Assembly: GCA_019248075.1 (NCBI GenBank)
Contig: JAEHHG010000001.1
Coordinates: 9,294-73,293, forward strand
DNA from: Candidatus Gracilibacteria bacterium S5_H10
Lineage (GTDB): Bacteria > Patescibacteriota > Gracilibacteria > Absconditabacterales > Absconditicoccaceae
DNA length: 64,000 nucleotides
Direction: 5' to 3'
The notes below the pieces were generated by a model, which saw nothing but the letters and a program-made list of their open reading frames with translations, did no database searches and was not told where the DNA came from. Shown in pieces: positions 47,469-58,215 of this stretch (position 1 is the first letter of the stretch; each line of letters starts with the position of its first letter). Position numbers and translations under genes: made by a program.

Positions 47469-48101
47469 TTACTGGCCCCAACCAAAGTTCATAAAACCAT
47501 TTCGTTTGTACTTGGCTTTGTGATTAGGATTTTGAGCAAACTTTAGGAAATATTCCACAAGCCTGTCGTAATACTGCCAGAAATAATCTGGATCCTCATC
47601 AGGATTGAAAACAAAAAGATGTATGATTTCATCTTCAATCCATGGAATCCTTTCTCCGGATGCCCAATCAATACCACCATTCACAACAGATTCACAATAA
47701 TTATGAAGCCGTTGCAAAGCTTTTTCTGAATAATCGGGACAAACTCTGTACAATTCAGCATTAACACCAACATCGATACGTACCCAAACAGTCTTCTGAT
47801 GTCGTGGAGAATGTTCTCTCCAGTATTCATCATAGGTACCTACAACCTGATCAATGGCGCCCGGCAATTCTTCTTGTAATACAAGCATGACTTCGTTCGC
47901 CCAATATCTGGCTAAGGAATCATACGATGATGGATCATTGGTTGATCGGTCAGCATCAATTCGATTCTCAGCTTCCACAATTTTGTTTCCGGTATTTTTC
48001 AGTATTTCTACCTTTATATACCGTGGCTGTTCATCATCTGAACAGCTTACAACAATCATCGAAATGATTGCAATCATCAAAAGAAAAGTAATTTTTTTCA
48101 T
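47469..48101 (-). CDS. lipoprotein of foreign appearance (210 aa)
   Basis: Lipobox-like MKKITFLLMIAIISMIVVSCSDDE. It is intact under the standard code, with 10 Gly codons, none of them UGA, and it is visibly richer in G+C than its neighbours. Confidence 0.7.
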   Translation of the reverse strand: MKKITFLLMIAIISMIVVSCSDDEQPRYIKVEILKNTGNKIVEAENRIDADRSTNDPSSYDSLARYWANEVMLVLQEELPGAIDQVVGTYDEYWREHSPRHQKTVWVRIDVGVNAELYRVCPDYSEKALQRLHNYCESVVNGGIDWASGERIPWIEDEIIHLFVFNPDEDPDYFWQYYDRLVEYFLKFAQNPNHKAKYKRNGFMNFGWGQ

Positions 48102-48287: not shown

Positions 48288-50756
48288 ATGGTAAATTTTG
48301 GAATCCTCGGTAACAATTCGAGGAATCTCCTCTATATAAAAAAATTTAACGACAAAAAAGGTATTCGTCTAGCAAACAATAAGCTTCAGACGAAAGATTT
48401 TCTCGTAGAAAGAGGAATTCCGTTTGCAAAGACTTACGGAATTATTTCCAATCGTACAGAACTCTATGATTTTGATTTTGCTTATCTTCCCAAGAAAAAT
48501 TTTGTCGTGAAGCCCAATCATGGAAGCAAATGACAATGAGTCTATATTGTAAAGTATATCGAGGAACAGCATCCAGATGAAAATAATAGTAAAGAAAAAA
48601 ATATCAGTAAAAAGAAAAATACATTTCAAAAGCGATGAGAGCAATGTAAAAAAATATTTTTGAAAAAGTTTGAAGAACATCAACATCACGGCAACTACCA
48701 GATAGGAGATGAAGTACTGACTGATCAAGATTTTAGAAGACGTTTGCTAGATATCATTGATGGAAAGCATTCTATGACACTTGGTGGAGACAAAATCATT
48801 ATAGAAGAAAAACTCATCGCCGGAGAATTATTCAAAGAATTTTGTGACTATGGATTGGCTGACATTAGAGTCATCGTCTTCAATCTCGTGCCTGTCGCGA
48901 CCATGATCAGAGTACCGACAAAACAATCCTGAGGTAAAGCAAATCTCGCTCAGTGATGACTGTGATTTGGTATTGAAGTCGGAAGTGGTAAGATTACTTC
49001 CCTACTCCGAAAAAATAAAATATACAAAGTTAGATTTCCCAAAAAATTCGCTCATTTCCAAAATAAAAAACTTCCCTACTGGAATGACATTCTTTTTCTT
49101 TCTTCCAAAGTACAGTATTTTGTCAATCTCTGATATCTCGCACTTGATCGAGTAATAACCAATGAATGACCAAAACTTCTGGAGATAAATGCAAGAGCGT
49201 GATTAGAAGTACAAAAAGTAAGTGATACAAAATTGAAAAATATTTTGGATAAAATAGCTGATCTCAAAATAGTCGATCCAGAAAAATGAGTAGAAATAGC
49301 AAAAAGTTTATTCACTTCTGAAAAATCAAATCTCCTCTGACAAAATAAACTTCTTTACCTTTCTCAATATGCAAAGCTCATCATCAAAGAAAAAGAAGAA
49401 GAGGAAAAAATTGATGTTATCGTAGAAGTAGATCTGAATAAATCATGAAATTATATGTCACAAAAATTGTTTAATAAAATCAAAGAAAATAAAAGAGAAC
49501 GATATCTTGATCTCTACGAAAATGAGATTACCCTCAAAAAATCAAAATTTTCTAATCTGGAAAGTCTAGCTGATAATAAAATAATTCTTGGTAACAAAAC
49601 TGCAAGCAATTATCTTATAAAACCTATTCATAAAACTTTTGATGTCGTTGATATCGTCAATCCAAAATATATTTATCCATTGGAAACTGCAGAACTTCAT
49701 AGCATTGATCAAAGAATAGAAAAAATCAATAAAAGACTTAATCTCTCTGCAAGACTAAGACCACTAAATTATTTTAGTGAACTCGATAAATTCATCACGC
49801 TTCACGGAAAATATAATCCTATTTTCCATTATAAACGACCAAAAGAAGATAAACTGAATCAGACCAAGAACGAAATTATCAAAATCCAAGAACACCTTCT
49901 CAAGCTCAAAAGCCCGTTTACTAAGATATTTTTGGACAAACTTGAAGAACTAGAAACGAGAAGAAATCTCATTCTTGCGTATACACAACAAAATTTTGAA
50001 AATATAGCATTGTACAATAAAAAACTTTTTGGTGAGTTCGATGATGAACTTTTGAAGATAGCAAAAGAAAAGGTATTAACACTCAAGGAAGATAATCAAA
50101 AGCTTTTGTGAGAACCGTTGACTCTATCGGAAATAGAAAAAACCATAGAGAAATATCTCGCAGAAAAAAAGATTTATGGTGTAGATATTGTTTTCAGTTA
50201 TACTAATCTTTCAAGAATTTCTGTGATTATGGGAAAACAGATTAAAATAAGCATTTCCAAGCATGGAGTATTCAGAGAAAAGGAATTGCTTTCTATTTTA
50301 GCCCATGAAATCGATACTCATCTCGTCAGATATCTTAATGGACTCAAATCTGGATGGAACATTTTAAAATCAGGAACTGGATTCTATCTCAAAGATGAAG
50401 AAGGGCTCGCCATCTATAATGCCGTCAAAATACTTCCTGAAGATTATGAAAAGAATAGTTTCTATAAAAAATATTTTTTAGTCAAAGAAGCAGAAAATAT
50501 AGATTTCAAAAAACTTGTAAATATGATAGAATTTCTTTATCCTAGCTATTCAAGAGAATTCCATTTTAAAACTGCATTGAGAATCAAAAAAGGAATTATA
50601 CATACATCAATACTCCATCCAGGAACTGTTTTTATGAAAGATAAAATCTATCTAGAATGATACAAAAAAATCAAACAACTAATGGAAGATTGAAAAGAAA
50701 ATGCTAAAATATATAAATGAAAAATTAAAAGTGAAGATTTAGATTATATAATATAA
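48288..50756 (+). CDS. fusion protein: RimK-related alpha-L-glutamate-ligase-like ATP-grasp domain (N-terminal) plus DUF1704/QEGLA MATCAP-like metallo-carboxypeptidase domain (C-terminal); 822 aa
   Basis: Track ORFs 48288, 48660, 49455 and 50118 are all in frame 0 and join through UGA. ATP-grasp signatures: FVVKPNHGSKGQGV, DIRVIVFNLVPVATMIRVPTKQSGGKANLAQGG and GPKLLEINARAGLEVQ. C-terminal domain: HEIDTH (50304..50321) and DEEGLA (about 50396). Confidence 0.8.
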
Positions 50757-50757
50757 C

Positions 50758-51726
50758 ATGGCGGCAAAACTATGATTTCAACAAATTTCCAAATATTTTT
50801 TGCAAGAAGAAGCAAAAAAAAGGTGATATACTATAGAAACTATTCATGAAAATAAAAATATTTTTTTTATAAAGCACAAAACAAAAAACATCTTATTTAA
50901 ATGAATCGATGCTTGATTAACTACTAGACTTGGCAAATATTTAAGCGAAGACAAACTTTTAACCTATACATTATTACAACGTAATAATATAAACATACCA
51001 GAATGTATAGTGATACATAAAAAAAACAAGATAGATCTTACAAATATAATAAAATTATGATTTCCATTGGTAACGAAACCTCTCAATTGAAGCTTATGAA
51101 GATGAGTTGTTGTATGAATCAAGACTAAAAAAGAACTAGAAAAAGCAATTAATTATAGCTTTGGTTTTGATAAAAATATCATCATACAGAAATGCGTTGA
51201 ATGAAAAAATCTAAGAATATTAGTCATCAATCATAAGGTATTTGCGTGATTAGAATGGTCAAGACATCATATAGTATGAGATGGAAAATCCTCCATCAAA
51301 GCATTATTAGAAAAAGAAAATCTAAATTCTCGAAGATGAGAGAATATTCTTATATCCACACTTCCAAAAATCAATATCAATCAAGATTTAGAAGATTTTT
51401 TTAAAGTACAATATTGATATGCATTTACTCATCGTCCTAAAAAGGATGAAATAATTTTTCTCAAAGGAAATGGATACAATAAAGTAATAGATATTACCGA
51501 TGAAATTCCGAAAAAGATTAAAGAAAAGTGTGAACAAGCAAGTATTGTTTTTGATTTAAAGGTTACAGGGATTGATGTGATATATAATATATCATCTTCA
51601 GGGGAAATGGATTATCGAGTATTGGAAGTAAATTCTCAGCCAGGAATAAGAACACATCATCTACCCATGTGATGAAAACCGAGAAATGCGGCATGAGCTA
51701 TTTTGGATCTTTATTTTGACAAATAA
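50758..51726 (+). CDS. ATP-grasp ligase resembling the N-terminal domain of cyanophycin synthetase
   Basis: The ATG lies 1 nt after the upstream stop. FPLVTKPLNGSLGRGVVVGI...RILVINHKVFAG...VLEVNSQPGIRTHHLPMGGKPRNAAGAILDLYF. Confidence 0.7.
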
Positions 51727-51760
51727 AGCATACAATATATTTATTTTTTCACTATCATCT

Positions 51761-52714
51761 ATGGAATTCGGATCATATGCATCTAATCAAATCTATAAAT
51801 ATGCTAAATCATACGATGTAAAAGCAACTGCGATTTCTTATGCAGACAACCTTATCCTGTTGGAGCACAAAGGAAAAAAAGAATTAATAAAGCAGACAGC
51901 AACTCGTTTCACTAATCTTATCCAAGGAAGAATCTGCGACAATAAGATTTTGACAACACAATATTTAAAAAGGAATTGAATCGATAATGTACCCAACAAC
52001 ATAGTGATCAAAGATTTTGAAGAGATAAAAAAGTATAAAATAAATTATCCCGTAGTCGTCAAACCATTAAAATGACATTGATGAAAAGGGATATCTGTAT
52101 GAGTCAGGACAAAAAAAGATTTGGAATCAGCATATAAAATAGCTAAAAAAGTTTATTTTCGCGTATTGGTGGAAGAACATATAGAAGGCGATGATTATAG
52201 ATTCTTGGTGATTGATAAAAATGTCCGAATATGCAAAAGAATGCCGCCAAAAATAATGGGGAATGGAAAAAATACCATTAAAAAACTTATAGACAACGAG
52301 AACAAACTAAGGGCAAAAACAAAAATTCTCGTGAATATCAAAATTGATAATGAGCTTAAACAGCAAATAAAAAAACAAGGATATACTTTGGATAGTATTC
52401 CTGCTAAGGATGTAGAAGTAGCACTTAGAAAAAACGCCAATCTGAGTACGTGAGGTACAACTATTGACTATACAGACCAAACACATATACAAAACAAAAA
52501 ATTAGCACTCAAAATAGCCAAGATTATGGATATGAAAATCATAGCCGTAGATTTTCTCTTTAAGGATCCAACGAACCCCTATTCTAAAGAAAATGGGATA
52601 ATTATAGAGATAAATGATACACCATGAATAAGATTACACCATCCAAGAGAAAAAGAGATTGTATATAACATATGTAAACTTTTATTCCCTACTCTTAGAA
52701 AATGAAAATATTAA
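51761..52714 (+). CDS. second cyanophycin-synthetase-N-like ATP-grasp ligase
   Basis: YPVVVKPLKGHGGKGISVGV...YRFLVIDKNV...NLSTGGTTIDYTD...IIEINDTPGIRLHHP. Confidence 0.7.
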
Positions 52715-53571
52715 TAGTCCATGCTATAGAAAGACCCACACTTAATTTATTAGTACAGGCAGCCAAAAAAAGATGACATACTGTTCTTACGTGTAAAATA
52801 TCGGATATTGAAATATATGATGGAAAAATATTCTGCAACAATCAAGATATTGCATCTTTTGATATTGTACTTTTTAGAGAAATCAGAAACAATAACGAAG
52901 AAGCAAAAATGATAACAACATATCTTAATGATTATAAAAAAATCATCATAGATGAAAGAATACGTGATGGTAAATGATGAAGTAAAATAAATACTTATCT
53001 GACACTTTCTCAGGCAAAAATCCCATTCCCTAAAACGATGTTTTTTTCAACAATCAAAGGCAAAGGATATTCATTTATTTCAGAGATATTATGAACACCC
53101 TTCATAACAAAGACAATAAATGGACAACAAGGGAAATGAGTCTATTTGACAACAAGCGAAGACGAATTTGAAATACTCAAAAAAGAACATACGGAAGATA
53201 AATTTTTGTTTCAAGAATTCATACCTAATGATTGAGACATCAGAGTGTTTATAGTATGAGACAAGATATTATGATCTATCAAAAGAACAGCACAAGCATG
53301 AGAATTTAGGAATAATGTAGCATTATGATGAAGTGCAGAAACAATAGAGATATCAAAAGAAATAGCAGAAATAGCGTTGAAAGCTAGTAAAATATTATGA
53401 TTACAAATAGCATGAGCAGATGTAATCATACACAAAAATACAGGCAAACCATATATTTTGGAAGTAAATCGTTCGCCGGAATTTGAATGATTTATGGAAG
53501 CAACACATATAGACGTAGCTACCGAAATCATCTCTTTTCTTGAAAAAATATGAACACCAGAACTTACATAA
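52702..53571 (+). CDS. RimK-type alpha-L-glutamate ligase
   Basis: It overlaps the upstream gene by 13 nt. PFITKTINGQQGKGVYL...GDIRVFIVGDKILGSIKR...FRNNVALGGSAE...GADVII....GKPYILEVNRSPEFEG. Confidence 0.8.
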
Positions 53572-53654: not shown

Positions 53655-55343
53655 ATGAAAAAAAATACCGATCAAAACGAATCCCTACAACAAAAAGAAT
53701 TCATGAATATCGCTAAAAAAATAGAAAATATCAAATCTAATATTGAAAAACCTATTTGAGGTATTTTACAATATACTCCAAACGGAATTAACAAAAGTTT
53801 TTTTTCTGAAAGTATAGAAAAAGTAACTCAGAGGGATATTGATAACGCGACTATTTTTCTTAATAGCTATTTACAAGAATTCAAAAGATTGGCAAAAGAA
53901 GTCCAAGAAAGTACTTTTCTCAATGATGTACAAAAAAAACTATTTATATGAACACTTAAAGCATTTGGTTTAAAAATAATACTCTTTAAATCTGCTGTGT
54001 ATATAGAAGGAGAAAAGTGATGATATGAACTCAATCCCAAAGATAAAGAACAATATCTCAGAAATATTGAAAAAATAGAAAAACTAGTCTATTGACCAAA
54101 TATATCTGAAAAAAAAGAAGAAGTAGATGTAATTATGACTTGATTAGATAGTCTCTATCAAAAAAATAAAGATAAAATCACTCTCGAAGAGCAAAAATAT
54201 TTTTCTCATTTTTTAGAAAAGTTTCCATGAAGAATATCAGAGACGAAAGAAATAGATATCGATAAAAATAAATTATGAAAACTTAACCAAGAAAATCTTG
54301 CTAAGATTTTTCAAAAAGGACTTAATATGTACAATATACAATCCAATATAGTTAAAATAAGTGATAAAATATCAGAAATTAAAGATGAAGATTGAATTCT
54401 TTATCTTCCACTACAAAATCCTAGCACCTGAGAAGGACGATTGAAAAAAGATTTGGATACTATATACGAAAAATTTTGATATAAAAACAATATATTGAAG
54501 ATAAAAATACACAAATGTGCTGCGATAGAAGTAGATATTCCTGGATATGAAATAAATATACCATCTAGCACTAATTACTATTCTGTTATCAGATCTTTGG
54601 AGCTATTATCACATGAGATTGTTACTCATGCATTTATCTGAACCAATAAAAAAAATAAATTTAATTTAGAATCTGATAGCTATCTCGAACTTCAAGAATG
54701 AATTGCTATGCTCAACGAAAAAGCAGTAACTACTGATATCAAAAACATATCTGTTGGTCCAACTATACATCATATATCAACATTTATTTGAGAAAATTAC
54801 AATATTACAGATACAAATAATATTTTACAAATATATTATAAGTTAAATGGTAAGAAAAACTTTCAAAGTTTAGCAAAAAATAGGACAGAAAGAGTTAAAA
54901 GATTTCATGCTAATGATCAGGAATGAGCCAACAGAAAAGATACAGTATATCGAAGAGGTATGGTAGATGGATTAAATTATATAAAAAACTTAGATGAAAA
55001 AAGCATAGAAGACATAGAAACACTACAAACAGATATTTTCAATTTTCATGTCGGGAAGTTAGGTAAAGAAGAGGTAAAAAATGTTCCACAACTCATAGAA
55101 TGATTTGATATTACACCGAAAAACATCATTTTACCTGCAGATATTGGAAAATTATTACTTTGGCTGTTGGAAAAAAATTCGCCAGATGGAAAATGAATCA
55201 AAATAACCAATGAAGCATTAGGGAAAAATGATATAAGATTTAAAGCATCGTTACCAGAGCAAAAATTAAATTATACACAGAAAAAATTACTCTTAGAAAT
55301 GAGAACATTCATCCAAAACAACACAGAAATAGAAAAAAAATAA
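53655..55343 (+). CDS. DUF1704/QEGLA-family (MATCAP-like) putative metallo-carboxypeptidase; 562 aa
   Basis: Open in frame 0 with many UGA-as-Gly codons. HEIVTH lies at 54612..54629 and QEGIA at 54693..54707, where the Gly of the motif is itself a UGA codon. Confidence 0.7.
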
Positions 55344-55382
55344 TACATAGTTTCGCTTGAATCCTATTGTTAAATCAGTTTA

Positions 55383-55412
55383 ATACAGACGATTTATTTG
55401 TCTGTATTTTTC
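55383..55412 (+). terminator. rho-independent terminator or attenuator
   Basis: An 8-bp stem atacagac/gtctgtat followed by a T-run, only 3 nt upstream of the next ATG. Confidence 0.55.
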
Positions 55413-55414
55413 TT

Positions 55415-56716
55415 ATGAAAAAAATCATCGCCATTATAGCATTACTTGCGGGAAGCATATTCCTTTTTACCACTACTTCAGCACAATTTACTTCCACCAC
55501 TTGTGAAGGACAAAGTCACTGCTCTGCTCCTACAAAATGAGTAAATTATAGAAATACTATTATCTATCTCTGAGAACAATGAGAAGAATTCGATCTCGGA
55601 TTTCAACAAAATTTTGATAAACAAAAAATTTTACTCCAGGAAATTTTTATCTCTGAAAATAAAAGTTTTTCTGAAGAAGAGCTATCAAATAAGATATTGG
55701 ACAATCTTGAGGAAATCAAAAAAGCAAATACGTTGATTATCAATACTGCAAATTTTGATATTCTTTTCCAATCGCTAGGAAAAATAGATGCTATAACTCC
55801 ACTTAATTTAGAATGAAAAACGATATATCTTGTAACCAATAGTAATAAATTTTTTCTCAAAAGAACCCTTGCTAAGCAAATCAAATCCATAAAAACAGAA
55901 AAAATATATACGCTATCTCAGAGTAAATTGCTCAATTTTCTTTCTACCCTTTCATTGGGAAAAATAGATAATAATGAAGACTATATAACGTCATTTTCGC
56001 TTTCATTTCATGAAACACCAAAATTTCTTATTATTTCGTATCTTGTAGATCATCTTATCTATAACTGATTTCCTATCGAGCTCATTGGCATGTTTTTATT
56101 ATTATCAATATGAGCATTGGTGATAAGTGTCCTCAGGCAAGTTGTTTGATTTTCTGTCTTTGGTATTTATATTCCGCTTTTGTTTGCACTTTCGTTGTTC
56201 ATGCTATGAGTACCATTAGGATTAACTTTATTAGCGATAGGATTGATTGCAAAAATACTTGTAAGACTTTTCACCAAAAAAATGTATCTGCTTCACAACG
56301 CCAAAACATCACTACTGGTTATGCTTTATTTTTTTATTCTCTTGCTGTTTTTGGGACTCAATACAATATTTGATCTCCCCTTTATAGATATGAATATTTT
56401 CAATAATGTATTTATCATCTTACCACTCGTCTTTGTAATCATAATCAGTGATAAAGTATTTAACGACTGATTCAAACTTTTTAGCAAAGGACGATGGGTA
56501 GCATTTATAGAATTTTTAGCTGTTTCATTCGCTGTATTCGGGCTTTTCTATCGAACTGGACTCAAACATACCTTATTGGCTTTCCCAGAACTTTTGATTC
56601 TGATCTTCTTTCTCAATATCGCTGTCGGAAGATTTACCGGACTTCAACTTCTCGAATATTTCCGTTTCATGCCATTACTAAAAAACTCCTCATGGACTGA
56701 GGAGGAAGAGGAATAA
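55415..56716 (+). CDS. signal peptide plus extracytoplasmic domain plus 7-TM module, resembling the 7TM domain that accompanies RimK-related ATP-grasp ligases; encoded C-terminus is EEEEE
   Basis: MKKIIAIIALLAGSIFLF signal sequence, about 200 aa of soluble domain, then seven hydrophobic helices (track fragments 56243 and neighbours); ends ...LLKNSSWTEEEEE, TAA 56714. Confidence 0.6.
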
Positions 56717-56837
56717 ACCATTCCAGCGTCATTCCGTTTCCTTTATTTTAACGTCATTCTCGCGAAAGCGGGAATCCATCTTGCTCTATAGCCCCAATTG
56801 GATTCCAGATCAGGTCGGGAATGACGTAATGTGGTTT
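56715..56837. mobile_element. MITE-like element, about 120 bp, with imperfect terminal inverted repeats (related to family 1)
   Basis: Left end ataaaccattccagcgtcattcc; the reverse complement of the right end is ataaaccacattacgtcattccc. An internal hairpin is acgtcattctcgcgaaagcgggaatcc. No ORF. Confidence 0.5.
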
Positions 56838-58215
56838 ATTTAAAATATCTTTTTTTCGTAGCTAACCATCGATCTGACTGTCTGGTGAGCTCTTGTTGGT
56901 CTTCAGCGTTTAAAAGGAAATGTTTGACTGCTTCTTCCAAGAAGATAGTATTCTGACTTCATTTGCAGACAATAAGAAATTCATCACCAGCTTCTTTGAG
57001 TATCTTCTGAATATGTTTTCCAGCGATATTTGCATCATAGAATTTTTCTACATTCTTCGGATCGTATCAAACCTTTTCCAGCTCATCCGCTAAATAGTCC
57101 GCCATATATTTCCCCACGAGAATCACACGATCAGCGACTTGTGAAACATATCCTGCTATCATTCTATGTTCTCTTTCGGTCAAATCACCCAGTTCTCTCA
57201 TATCTCATAGTACGAGAATAATTTTTCTGTTTGGGAACAATTGCGATTGTATATTGTGCGCCGTGTTGATAATTTTCCTGACACTGAGTGGTGAAGCATT
57301 ATAAGTAGAATCTATGATGACGCTATTCTCTATACCATGGAAAATAGAAAGTCTTCCTGGCTGTAATTGATACTTGAGTTGAAGCTGTTCATGAGAACCA
57401 TTTCTCAAGATAGGATCTTCTGGTCTAGATTCCAGCTTAGCATATTTATAGTCTAGAATTCATGCAATAGCGAGTCATACTCCTATATAGCCATAATTTG
57501 CTTTTCCGAGAATATTGGTACTGACAGCATATTTTTTTTCTTTGATCCACGTATGGAATTGTACTCAAATTCATCCTTTGAAATCGGCGAGATAGAATTG
57601 TTCATCCTTGAAATGGATATCCGCGGTGATATCATTACCTTCCGTCTGATAGGTCAGATAATCTATTTTCAATTGATCTTTGAGCTGGAGTGCATAAGCG
57701 TCGTTAGCATTGAGGAATCCTATTTCCAATGTATTTTGCAACATCTTCACTTCTTCTTTTGCTATCTCTGCGGGATTACCAAATTGCTCTGAATGGACGG
57801 AATCTATAGCCGTAAAAATACCGATATGCGGTTTTGCTATAGTCACAAGAAAGTCCATCTCCCCAGGACGATCAATCCCATATTCGAGAAGGATAATATC
57901 GTAAGGTTTGGATCAGAAAAATCTTTTTCGGATAAGTTTCAAAAGTGTTGTAATGAAATTTATGATCGTCGGTTCCCGCTTTTCTATCTGAAAAATAGAG
58001 AGCGACATCCCGAGTTCTCCGTTGAAGTTTTTGGGTGAAGTATATATTTTTTTGTTGGGAATAAATTTTTGCAATGTCTGATAAACAATCATACGGCAGG
58101 AAGTTTTTCCTACACTTCCGTTGATTCAGATAATCTGTGGATTGTGTTTGTTGATATATGCATGTGCCAACTTTCCCAGCATTTTATAATATCATCGTAA
58201 TAACTTTTTTTTCAT
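56836..58215 (-). CDS. murF: UDP-N-acetylmuramoyl-tripeptide--D-alanyl-D-alanine ligase
   Basis: GINGSVGKTS (P-loop), the Mur-ligase middle domain, and VLGDMRELGDLTEREH, which is a MurF hallmark; ends at TAA 56836. Confidence 0.8.

What the first reader, a model, noticed from the sequence alone, without database searches (positions are those of the whole stretch)
48288..50756. Writer and eraser domains fused in one 822-aa polypeptide
The frame stays open (UGA read as Gly) from the ATP-grasp domain, which ends near GPKLLEINARAGLEVQ at about 49200. It passes through a Lys/Glu-rich linker (KEKEEEEKIDVIVEV) into the DUF1704 domain. Ligase and carboxypeptidase activities on a single chain are unusual. 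The arrangement implies either length control of an added tail (add and trim) or proofreading of the added residue.
Basis: seen in the sequence. Interest (0 to 1): 0.65.

Follow-up and report, generated by a model that had tools for sequence, protein, structure and literature searches.

The report
Ligase–dead protease–MATCAP carboxypeptidase fusion
One real 822-residue protein of an Absconditabacteria (SR1) genome joins an amino-acid ligase, a dead protease relic and a tubulin-detyrosinase-type carboxypeptidase, and its membrane-protein partner almost always ends in Glu-Glu, hinting at a bacterial add-and-trim cycle on a protein tail.

Summary
Window 48288-50756 (+) is one 822-codon frame with 17 in-frame TGA and no TAA or TAG. 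Orthologues show Gly at the TGA sites, so the genome uses code 25.

The fusion is not an assembly artefact. More than 110 SR1 clusters have it, and so do dozens of standard-code Peribacteria and Gracilibacteria, where it is one uninterrupted ORF.

The N-terminus is an intact RloC/RimK-like ATP-grasp ligase. The C-terminus is an intact MATCAP-type Zn carboxypeptidase with HEIDTH and EEGLA.

The "Lys/Glu-rich linker" is not a linker. It is a degenerate RimB/RloA-type retropepsin domain (hhalign E 4.5e-22) that has lost its D-T-G-A motif. Other Patescibacteria carry the same ligase fused to an active retropepsin, and a few intermediates keep both peptidases. So MATCAP appears to have replaced the older eraser.

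A 7TM_transglut (RloB-like) gene accompanies the ligase almost everywhere. Beside MATCAP fusions its cytoplasmic tail ends in -EE in 47 of 51 loci (window: -TEEEEE). Beside active-retropepsin forms the count is 0 of 12.

Best reading: an add-and-trim cycle on that tail, analogous to RimK/RimB on RpsF-EE and to TTL/MATCAP on tubulin-EE(Y).

This is a new variant of a known writer–eraser kind. It is present in databases but apparently undescribed. The mechanism is inferred, not shown.

The parts
48288..50756 (+). Full coding sequence of the 822-aa three-domain protein (code 25; 17 TGA=Gly; stop TAA at 50754)
   Evidence: Orthologues of 46-82% identity and 800-840 aa all carry PF14397+PF08014.
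48321..49256 (+). ATP-grasp ligase domain (ATPgrasp_ST / TIGR02291-like, RloC/RimK-like). Motifs: VVKPNHGSKGQGV 48504-48542, LADIRV 48855-, KANLAQGG 48936-48959, LALDRV 49137-49154, LLEINARAG 49176-49202
   Evidence: Pfam E 2.5e-42. TIGR02291 175 bits, below its cutoff. Invariant catalytic-type residues in 38 orthologues. Foldseek to RimK, ArgX/LysX and CphA1 at E 1e-7 to 1e-5.
48567..48704 (+). Lys-rich, low-confidence insert inside the ATP-grasp (aa ~94-139), variable among orthologues
   Evidence: pLDDT below 50 for the equivalent 94-139 of P0002. Gapped and variable columns in A1.
49335..49631 (+). VDLNKS (49428-49445) replaces the catalytic IDTGA(Y), and the ~45-aa flap-containing insert is deleted
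   Evidence: Collinear alignment with 14 ATP-grasp–retropepsin proteins. hhalign probability 99.4%, E 4.5e-22. All-beta, pLDDT ~75-88. No direct Pfam hit. Pfam does see Zn_protease at this position in the intermediates P0182 and P0230.
49707..50750 (+). MATCAP/DUF1704 (TIGR02421 'QEGLA'-like) gluzincin carboxypeptidase domain. HEIDTH 50304-50321 and DEEGLA 50394-50411
   Evidence: Pfam E 4.8e-16. phmmer to human MATCAP 7z5g E 3.6e-13, with HEIDTH aligned to HEIGTH and EEGLA to EEGLA. Foldseek E 5e-12, TM 0.61-0.66.
50758..51726 (+). ATP-grasp ligase paralogue G2, similar to the cyanophycin-synthetase G domain; its start is 2 nt after the fusion's stop
   Evidence: TIGR02068 E 1.8e-58, partial and below cutoff. 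Pfam RimK.
51761..52714 (+). ATP-grasp ligase paralogue G3, similar to the cyanophycin-synthetase G domain
   Evidence: TIGR02068 E 4.2e-77, partial and below cutoff.
52702..53571 (+). RimK-family alpha-L-glutamate ligase (289 aa); overlaps the end of G3 by 13 nt
   Evidence: TIGR00768 169.5 bits, above its 143.4 cutoff. Pfam RimK E 7e-39.
53655..55343 (+). Second, stand-alone and highly divergent MATCAP paralogue (562 aa). HEIVTH 54612-54629 and QEGIA 54693-54707
   Evidence: Pfam MATCAP E 1.8e-7, 30.9 bits against a cutoff of 27. Homologue at the same position in Absconditicoccus L083.
55415..56716 (+). RloB-like 7TM_transglut membrane protein (signal peptide, ~190-aa outer domain, 7TM). Its C-terminal tail ...SSWTEEEEE (56699-56713) is the proposed acceptor and substrate
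   Evidence: Pfam PF14402 E 9.4e-10. Adjacent to the ligase in ~70 of 80 GTDB loci. -EE tail in 47 of 51 MATCAP-fusion loci against 0 of 12 retropepsin loci.

Best explanation
The gene encodes one cytoplasmic three-domain enzyme. The N-terminus is an active RloC/RimK-type ATP-grasp amino-acid ligase. The middle is a catalytically dead retropepsin (RimB/RloA-type) relic. The C-terminus is an active MATCAP-type zinc carboxypeptidase.

It works with the co-transcribed RloB-like 7TM membrane protein, whose cytoplasmic C-terminus ends in -EE(E)n. The ligase extends that tail by ATP-dependent addition of amino acids to the terminal carboxylate. Glutamate is the most likely residue, given the RimK/Rlo lineage. 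The fused carboxypeptidase removes residues one at a time from the new C-terminus. Tail length is therefore set by the balance of the two activities on one chain.

The dead retropepsin domain is probably kept as a ligase-activating or tail-binding module. In SR1 the extra ligases (two CphA-like, one RimK) and the second MATCAP probably elaborate the same or a related tail.

Shown: single ORF, domain identities, intact catalytic motifs, decayed D-T-G, synteny, and the -EE correlation. Inferred: the identity of the substrate, the residue added, and the antagonism between the two activities.
For: Single conserved ORF.

Ligase: Pfam and NCBIfam hits and invariant K75, E180/E181, D199/R201, N226, D294, E306/N308 and R310 in 38 orthologues. 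The closest solved folds are RimK (including its complex with RpsF), ArgX/LysX (with LysW) and cyanophycin synthetase. All of these extend a peptide or protein carboxylate.

Carboxypeptidase: HExxxH plus EEG aligned to human MATCAP and fold TM 0.61-0.66. The MATCAP/TMCP family trims C-terminal residues sequentially from acidic tails and deglutamylates (PMC10499314).

Retropepsin relic. D[TS]G is lost in 209 of 216 scorable fusions and kept in the intermediates P0181, P0182, L034 and L052.

Rationale for keeping the relic: RimB raises RimK ATPase activity fourfold (PMC11957791 section 8).

Partner and substrate: 7TM_transglut lies immediately upstream, or in the operon, in ~70 of 80 loci. The -EE tail occurs in 47 of 51 loci against 0 of 12, Fisher p 7e-10. 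The three SR1 loci that carry the 7TM gene, including the window, end in -EEE to -EEEEE. The background for other ORFs is ~0.5%.

Writer–eraser antagonism in the homologous Rlo operon: deleting rloB or rloC rescues the triple rloA protease mutant, and RloA cleaves polyGlu (PMC11957051).

Recurrent genomic linkage of MATCAP with ATP-grasp genes in Proteobacteria.
Against: There is no biochemical or expression evidence for any member of this fusion family.

The -EE correlation is confounded by phylogeny, because nearly all fusions belong to one clade. It may amount to a single evolutionary event.

One fusion locus (L045) has a -FKK tail and two others end in a single E. About 10 fusion loci, and Vampirococcus (L084), have no 7TM gene within the fetched flank.

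The cytoplasmic location of the tail rests on a signal peptide, the Pfam '7TM' name, crude hydropathy and the RloB topology reported in PMC11957051. No dedicated predictor was run.

The residue added is unknown. A carboxypeptidase could also erode the encoded -EE itself.

AF2 pTM of 0.52 gives no reliable inter-domain geometry.
Confidence: 0.45

Rival explanations
1. Free-polymer model. The ligase, helped by the CphA-like and RimK paralogues, makes a free acidic peptide or polymer such as poly-alpha-glutamate or a cyanophycin-like product. This is handed to or exported by the 7TM protein. The MATCAP domain limits length or recycles the polymer. The -EE tail is only a docking or priming mimic, not the substrate.
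For: RimK makes free poly-alpha-Glu, and RimB both stimulates and degrades it (PMC11957791 section 8). The Rlo authors consider free polyGlu a possible RloA substrate (PMC11957051). The operon has two cyanophycin-synthetase-like ligases. The retropepsin-type modules have no -EE tail on their 7TM partner and must use some other acceptor.
Against: It does not explain why the terminal -EE appears with a C-terminal exopeptidase and is conserved while the preceding residues vary. The extra ligases are absent from most Peribacteria loci, which still have the fusion and the -EE partner.
Confidence: 0.25
2. Sequential-pathway model. The two activities are not antagonists. MATCAP first removes a C-terminal residue, or cleaves a precursor, to expose the carboxylate that the ligase then uses (or the reverse order). 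This would resemble a cell-wall peptide salvage or remodelling route.
For: Flanking cell-wall genes: murF-like beside the window cluster and inside the RAAC1 cluster, and PBP1A next to the unfused modules. Rlo mutants have envelope and morphology phenotypes (PMC11957051). A YdjC deacetylase is fused to or clustered with the ligase in some genomes.
Against: The encoded tails already end in -EE with nothing to remove. The eraser swap (retropepsin decays once MATCAP arrives) implies that the two peptidases do the same job, and for the retropepsins that job is removing ligase-added Glu (PMC11957791). The murF and PBP adjacency is not consistent across loci.
Confidence: 0.15
3. Artefact model. These are two separate genes, or a pseudogene, joined only by reading UGA as sense or by a sequencing error.
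For: Under table 11 the frame breaks into 18 pieces. Some database entries are fragments of 200-570 aa.
Against: Standard-code Peribacteria encode the same collinear 770-816 aa protein as a single ORF with no TGA. More than 110 SR1 clusters are full length. The TGA sites align with Gly. The middle domain is conserved and folded.
Confidence: 0.02

Closest known systems
RloABC operon of Pseudomonas (RloA retropepsin, RloB inactive-transglutaminase 7TM, RloC ATP-grasp; PMC11957051)
   Same: The ATP-grasp clade matches by family hits (PF14397, TIGR02291-like). The 7TM_transglut (PF14402) partner is adjacent. A peptidase opposes the ligase, and genetics show that ligase loss rescues protease loss.
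   Different: Here the peptidase is fused to the ligase, cytoplasmic, and of a different fold (MATCAP gluzincin). The retropepsin survives only as a dead internal domain. The 7TM partner has no recognisable transglutaminase domain and carries a conserved -EE tail. I did not compare the RloC sequence directly.
RimK/RimB and the RimBK hybrid (PMC11957791)
   Same: An ATP-grasp Glu ligase is paired with, or fused to, a peptidase that removes the added Glu. The acceptor RpsF ends in -EE. RimB also activates RimK.
   Different: RimBK has the order retropepsin–RimK, an active protease and a different ATP-grasp subfamily. It has no MATCAP and no 7TM partner. Its target is a ribosomal protein.
Eukaryotic tubulin tyrosination/glutamylation cycle: TTL/TTLL (ATP-grasp) versus MATCAP/TMCP (PDB 7z5g; PMC10499314)
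   Same: The eraser family is the same, by sequence E 3.6e-13 and by fold. The writer has the same fold class. The substrate logic is the same: a protein C-terminal tail ending in -EE that is extended and trimmed.
   Different: The writer here is not a TTL-family member (no PF03133 hit on the fusion). Writer and eraser are on one chain. The proposed substrate is a membrane protein rather than tubulin. No activity has been shown.
ATPgrasp_ST–retropepsin two-domain proteins of other Patescibacteria (Saccharibacteria, Moraniibacteria, Kerfeldbacteria, Paceibacteria; L063-L080)
   Same: Orthologous ligase, the same 7TM neighbour, and a homologous middle domain.
   Different: They keep D-T-G-A (14 of 14) and the flap insert, and they lack MATCAP. 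Their 7TM partner does not end in -EE (0 of 12).
Proteobacterial TIGR02421 'QEGLA'/DUF1704 proteins (Photobacterium, Sinorhizobium pSymB)
   Same: A MATCAP domain is genomically coupled to an ATP-grasp ligase.
   Different: The genes are separate. The ligase is of the glutathione-synthetase type. MATCAP is associated with an FGase amidohydrolase (fused in Photobacterium, an upstream overlapping ORF in Sinorhizobium). There is no 7TM partner.

Membership tests
ATP-grasp, ATPgrasp_ST (PF14397) | Pfam score above the gathering threshold | tested here: met
   145.4 bits against 31.4, aa 12-323.
ATP-grasp, ATPgrasp_ST (PF14397) | ATP- and Mg-binding residues: Lys in beta-strand VVKP, Gly-rich loop, hinge EE, and D...E-x-N | tested here: met
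   K75, S80/K81, E180/E181, D294, E306/N308 and R310 are invariant in 38 orthologues and present in the window protein.
TIGR02291 alpha-L-glutamate ligase-like (RloC-type) equivalog | NCBIfam curated cutoff | tested here: not met
   174.9 bits against 314.2. It is related but not an equivalog.
MATCAP / DUF1704 (PF08014) | Pfam score above the gathering threshold | tested here: met
   59.1 bits against 27.
MATCAP / DUF1704 (PF08014) | HExxxH zinc motif plus a downstream EEG third ligand | tested here: met
   HEIDTH and DEEGLA align to HEIGTH and TEEGLA of human MATCAP. Both are kept in nearly all fusions.
MATCAP / DUF1704 (PF08014) | MATCAP fold | tested here: met
   Foldseek to 7z5g and 7z6s, E 5e-12, TM (target) 0.61-0.66. 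The model is of the 82%-identical orthologue P0002.
MATCAP / DUF1704 (PF08014) | C-terminal carboxypeptidase activity | not testable with these tools
   Needs an enzyme assay.
TIGR02421 QEGLA equivalog | NCBIfam curated cutoff | tested here: not met
   72.3 bits against 338.65.
Retropepsin-like PF05618 (RimB/RloA) | Homology of the domain | tested here: met
   hhalign probability 99.4%, E 4.5e-22 against the domain of 14 ATP-grasp–retropepsin proteins that hit PF05618. There is no direct Pfam hit on the window segment.
Retropepsin-like PF05618 (RimB/RloA) | Catalytic D-T/S-G-A motif | tested here: not met
   VDLNKS occupies the aligned position. The motif is lost in 209 of 216 scorable fusions. 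This is a relic, not a functional member.
RimBK hybrid | N-terminal active RimB domain fused to RimK | tested here: not met
   The order is reversed, the protease is dead, and the ligase is of the PF14397 type rather than the RimK family.
RloABC-type operon | 7TM_transglut (RloB-like) gene beside the ATP-grasp gene | tested here: met
   PF14402 protein at 55415-56716 in the same operon. It is immediately adjacent in ~70 of 80 related loci.
RloABC-type operon | Secreted, active retropepsin (RloA) | tested here: not met
   No such gene lies in the cluster. The only retropepsin homologue is the internal dead domain.
Tubulin-tyrosine-ligase family (PF03133) | TTL family signature on the writer domain | tested here: not met
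   The fusion has no PF03133 hit at E<=1. The cycle is an analogue, and the writer is not a TTL member.
Code-25 (UGA=Gly) Absconditabacteria/Gracilibacteria | In-frame TGA at conserved Gly positions | tested here: met
   The closest named orthologues are from Candidatus Absconditabacteria/SR1.

The most novel reading that the evidence does not exclude
Gracilibacteria-class Patescibacteria run a true protein C-terminal tail code. A single-chain ATP-grasp writer and MATCAP eraser reversibly extends the conserved cytoplasmic -EE terminus of an RloB-like 7TM membrane protein to regulate envelope or transport functions. This bacterial ATP-grasp/MATCAP pairing on an -EE tail would then be the prokaryotic antecedent of the eukaryotic TTL(L)/MATCAP tubulin tyrosination–glutamylation cycle.
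Probability: 0.25. Interest if true: 0.85.

Novelty: new variant of a known kind. Interest (0 to 1): 0.6.

Why it matters
MATCAP/TMCP enzymes are known only as erasers of the eukaryotic tubulin code, and their bacterial homologues (DUF1704/QEGLA) have no known function.

In this case the MATCAP domain is covalently tied to an amino-acid ligase. It has apparently displaced an older polyGlu-cleaving retropepsin. It also co-occurs with a membrane partner whose tail ends in -EE, the same end as detyrosinated tubulin and the RimK substrate RpsF.

That yields a concrete, cheap biochemical hypothesis with a defined peptide substrate. It would address three open points: the function of bacterial MATCAPs, the still-unknown substrate of the Rlo/7TM-transglutaminase systems implicated in Pseudomonas antibiotic tolerance and biofilm formation, and the evolutionary origin of the tubulin tail-modifying enzyme pair.

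It is also a clean example of non-orthologous displacement of an eraser that leaves a dead domain inside the protein.

Tried and rejected
(1) Table-11 reading, i.e. two genes or a pseudogene. Rejected.

(2) The middle segment as a low-complexity linker. Rejected by alignment, hhalign and the AF2 beta-domain. A direct Pfam scan of the segment gave only noise.

(3) tRNA search for a UGA-decoding tRNA-Gly in the window. None is present, so this is uninformative.

(4) Literature searches for DUF1704 + ATP-grasp, MATCAP + bacterial + ATP-grasp, QEGLA, and DUF1704 alone. These returned 0, 0, 1 and 1 papers, and the two returned were not examined. The key comparative paper (Iyer et al. 2009, PMC3268129) is not held. 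I therefore cannot exclude that it already mentions this architecture.

I used the 82%-identical NCBI orthologue P0002 instead, so the structure is of the orthologue, not the window protein.

(6) Plasmid records had no annotation under the MATCAP hits. I scanned the ORFs myself.

(7) Promoter and terminator scan. Promoter-like sites were fewer than in shuffles and terminators were not enriched, so operon status rests on spacing and strand only.

(8) Whether the two active sites face each other could not be assessed. No coordinates are returned, and pTM is 0.52.

(9) My first tail parser mis-read L001, L027 and L029. I corrected these by direct translation.
Full report
OBSERVATION

Window 48288-50756 (+) is a 2469-nt frame of 822 sense codons ending in TAA. 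It contains 17 in-frame TGA and no TAA or TAG. Under table 11 it falls into short ORFs.

The whole window behaves the same way. Long housekeeping ORFs (gyrase subunits, an elongation-factor-like protein, tRNA synthetases) appear only when TGA is read as sense, and each carries 5-21 in-frame TGA. G+C is about 32%.

Reading TGA as Gly restores the ATP-grasp loop GSKGQGV. At the conserved TGA positions, 112 full-length orthologues show only G, or W in database copies that were translated with code 4. The window's own database entry P0001 is one of those code-4 copies. The genome is therefore code 25. The nearest named relatives are Candidatus Absconditabacteria/SR1. The ATG at 48288 matches the orthologues' N-termini.

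IS THE FUSION REAL?

Yes. A word-indexed search returned more than 110 clusters at 46-82% identity, all 800-840 aa and all PF14397+PF08014. They include the closed RAAC1_SR1_1 genome and Vampirococcus lugosii.

An exhaustive search of 1.84 billion representatives found 1671 relatives. About 90 of the best 150 are collinear full-length proteins, down to 29% identity. Many of these have normal Trp and Gly content, so they come from standard-code organisms. All of those keep HExxxH and [Q/E]EGLA.

A scan of GTDB species genomes names them: Peribacteria/Peregrinibacteria, Gracilibacteria, Altimarinota, and a few other Patescibacteria bins. In those standard-code genomes the protein is a single table-11 ORF of 770-816 aa. 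This excludes a stop or frameshift between the halves.

NCBI already labels some members 'tyrosine/phenylalanine carboxypeptidase domain-containing protein' or 'DUF1704 domain-containing protein'.

THE DOMAINS

N-terminus, aa 12-323: ATPgrasp_ST (E 2.5e-42). The best NCBIfam model is TIGR02291 'alpha-L-glutamate ligase-like', but the score is below its equivalog cutoff. The residues expected for ATP and Mg binding are invariant in 38 orthologues.

C-terminus, aa ~474-821: MATCAP/DUF1704. The best NCBIfam model is TIGR02421 'QEGLA', again below cutoff. It hits human MATCAP (KIAA0895L, PDB 7z5g/7z6s) directly by sequence at E 3.6e-13. HEIDTH aligns to HEIGTH and DEEGLA to TEEGLA.

An AlphaFold2 model of the 82%-identical orthologue P0002 has mean pLDDT 79.5 and pTM 0.52. 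It matches human MATCAP (Foldseek E 5e-12, TM 0.61-0.66). For the N-domain it matches RimK (including the RimK–RpsF complex), ArgX/LysX (with LysW) and cyanophycin synthetase. From established knowledge, all of these ligases extend the carboxylate of a peptide or of a protein's C-terminal glutamate.

THE 'LINKER' IS A DEAD PROTEASE DOMAIN

In Saccharibacteria, Moraniibacteria, Kerfeldbacteria, Paceibacteria and similar bins, the orthologous ligase is a 450-480 aa protein. Its C-terminal extension hits PF05618, the retropepsin-like 'Zn_protease' family of RimB and RloA. It carries D-T-G-A in 14 of 14 complete cases.

The window protein's aa ~350-448 (49335-49631) aligns collinearly with that domain:
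- beta-1: 'LLYLSQYAKLI' against 'VIGTVEKVKLI'
- catalytic strand: 'VEVDLNKSGNY' against 'AKIDTGAYSTS'
- C-terminal strand: 'IILGNKTASNYLIKP' against 'MIVGKRDLKKFLIDV'

Independently rebuilt profiles of the two sets match at 99.4% probability, E 4.5e-22. The AF2 model shows an all-beta unit there.

In the fusions the D-T/S-G motif is gone in 209 of 216 scorable sequences, and a ~45-residue insert that contains the flap region is deleted. A few proteins are intermediates. P0181 and P0182 keep DTGA, L034 and L052 keep DSG, and Pfam itself reports ATPgrasp_ST + Zn_protease + MATCAP for P0182 and P0230.

The simplest history has three steps. An ATP-grasp–retropepsin ancestor existed. It gained a C-terminal MATCAP domain. 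The retropepsin active site then decayed. This is non-orthologous displacement of the eraser.

The same ligase–retropepsin core has also acquired a second ATP-grasp (P0217) or a YdjC domain (P0244).

CONTEXT

In the window the fusion heads a same-strand, tightly spaced cluster:
- two cyanophycin-synthetase-G-domain-like ligases (50758-51726, 51761-52714)
- a RimK-family ligase that passes the curated cutoff (52702-53571)
- a second, very divergent MATCAP (53655-55343, with HEIVTH and QEGIA)
- a PF14402 7TM_transglut protein (55415-56716)

Absconditicoccus has the same set. RAAC1 has a reduced one. Vampirococcus has only the fusion within the contig held.

Across 80 GTDB loci, a 7TM_transglut gene lies immediately upstream of the ligase on the same strand in about 70, whether the ligase carries MATCAP or an active retropepsin.

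This trio of peptidase, 7TM_transglut and ATP-grasp is the architecture of the Pseudomonas rlo operon. There RloA retropepsins cleave polyGlu, and deleting rloB or rloC rescues the protease-null phenotypes (PMC11957051).

The related Rim system adds Glu to the -EE end of RpsF with RimK and removes it with RimB. RimB also raises RimK's ATPase activity fourfold, and a natural RimB–RimK hybrid is proteolytically active (PMC11957791).

In Proteobacteria, MATCAP/QEGLA domains sit next to glutathione-synthetase-type ATP-grasp genes and are associated with an FGase amidohydrolase. This holds on the Photobacterium plasmid pDA100 (fused) and Sinorhizobium pSymB (an upstream overlapping ORF). Linkage of MATCAP with ATP-grasp ligases is therefore recurrent.

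A CANDIDATE SUBSTRATE

The window's 7TM protein ends ...SSWTEEEEE.

- Of 51 GTDB loci with a MATCAP fusion and a neighbouring 7TM gene, 47 encode a 7TM protein ending in -EE. One more (L029) does so once my parser error is corrected. Two end in a single -E. One (L045) ends in -FKK.
- Of 12 loci with the active-retropepsin form, none end in -EE. Their tails are -KEM, -KIK, -KHIK, -KKLS, -PSKK and similar.
- Fisher p = 7e-10, not corrected for phylogeny.
- The residues just before the -EE vary (HLQEE, HIEE, HAEEEE, GEEE, DTEE). This argues for selection on the terminus itself.
- The other two SR1 genomes examined that carry the 7TM gene also end -EEE.
- Among 655 ORFs of at least 200 aa in these loci, 51 end in EE, and roughly 48 of those are the 7TM proteins.

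With a signal peptide, an outer domain and seven helices, the C-terminus should be cytoplasmic. This agrees with the RloB topology described in PMC11957051, but here it rests only on crude hydropathy.

MATCAP/TMCP enzymes sequentially trim C-terminal residues of acidic tails and deglutamylate (PMC10499314). Detyrosinated tubulin and RpsF both end in -EE.

MECHANISM PROPOSED

The ligase extends the cytoplasmic -EE tail of the 7TM partner, most likely with Glu. The fused MATCAP trims it back. The dead retropepsin is retained as an activator, or as a tail-binding or dimerisation module.

I put confidence in the whole statement at about 0.45. A generic add-and-trim relationship is more secure than the identity of the substrate.

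Rivals:
- a free polymer product, with the tail serving only as a docking element (0.25)
- a sequential pathway rather than an antagonistic one, possibly linked to the cell wall (0.15)
- an artefact (0.02 or less)

COMPARISON AND NOVELTY

The protein is a member of PF14397 and PF08014. It is not an equivalog of TIGR02291 or TIGR02421. Its middle domain is homologous to PF05618 but fails that family's catalytic criterion.

The protein works like RimK/RimB, RimBK and RloABC. It parallels TTL/MATCAP in logic, but the writer is not a TTL-family member.

The architecture exists in public databases under automatic names. I found no paper describing it in the searchable library. Iyer et al. 2009 could not be read.

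I classify it as a new variant of a known writer–eraser kind. The genuinely new elements are the eraser replacement, the fossil domain and the -EE-tailed partner.

LIMITS

- There is no experimental evidence.
- The structure is of an orthologue, and the inter-domain geometry is unresolved.
- The tail correlation may reflect one evolutionary event.
- Operon status rests on spacing and strand only, because the consensus promoter and terminator scans were uninformative.

Noticed in passing
window 55415-56716 (tail codons 56699-56713): The RloB-like 7TM_transglut protein ends in ...SSWTEEEEE. A terminal -EE is conserved in 7TM partners of MATCAP fusions (47 of 51) and absent from partners of active-retropepsin forms (0 of 12).
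   Followed up: yes
window 53655-55343: A second, stand-alone MATCAP paralogue (562 aa; HEIVTH, QEGIA). It is so divergent from the fused one that BLASTP finds only the motif region (E 0.011). Its ~300-aa N-terminal region has no family hit. A homologue sits at the same place in Absconditicoccus (L083).
   Followed up: partly
window 50758-53571: Three further ATP-grasp ligases lie in the same operon: two like the cyanophycin-synthetase G domain, and one true RimK-family member. This suggests a more elaborate, possibly hetero-residue, tail or polymer in this lineage.
   Followed up: partly
window 47469-48101 (-): A 210-aa lipoprotein-like ORF (signal peptide plus Cys) has zero in-frame TGA. It lies in the window's highest-GC stretch (0.377 against ~0.32) and has no Pfam family. 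It may be foreign or recently acquired.
   Followed up: no
database orthologues P0001-P0120: Many public copies of SR1 proteins are translated with code 4. At conserved Gly sites 28-84 of 112 orthologues show Trp (GSKGQG becomes GSKWQW). This corrupts motifs and profile building for code-25 lineages.
   Followed up: partly
window 56836-58215 (-); L081 13346-14596: A murF-like Mur ligase abuts the cluster. In RAAC1_SR1_1 a Mur ligase sits inside the cluster on the same strand. In the unfused Patescibacteria loci L063 and L068 the module lies between yebC-ruvC and a PBP1A-type gene. This may indicate a link to the cell envelope.
   Followed up: no
L085 4086-7080; L086 4397-8198: In Photobacterium and Sinorhizobium meliloti pSymB the MATCAP/QEGLA domain lies next to a glutathione-synthetase-type ATP-grasp gene and an FGase amidohydrolase. 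FGase is fused to it in Photobacterium and is an upstream overlapping ORF in Sinorhizobium.
   Followed up: partly
P0217, P0244, P0230 (representative proteins): The ATPgrasp_ST–retropepsin core also occurs fused to a second ATP-grasp (926 aa) or to YdjC (688 aa). P0230 (916 aa) has ATPgrasp_ST + Zn_protease + a MATCAP domain that lacks an HExxxH match.
   Followed up: no
window 48567-48704: A Lys-rich, low-confidence insert (aa ~94-139) interrupts the ATP-grasp domain in SR1 orthologues. It is variable or absent in Peribacteria.
   Followed up: no
window 55382-55408: A terminator-like hairpin (11-bp stem plus a T run) lies between the MATCAP2 stop and the 7TM start. It may attenuate expression of the 7TM gene.
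   Followed up: no
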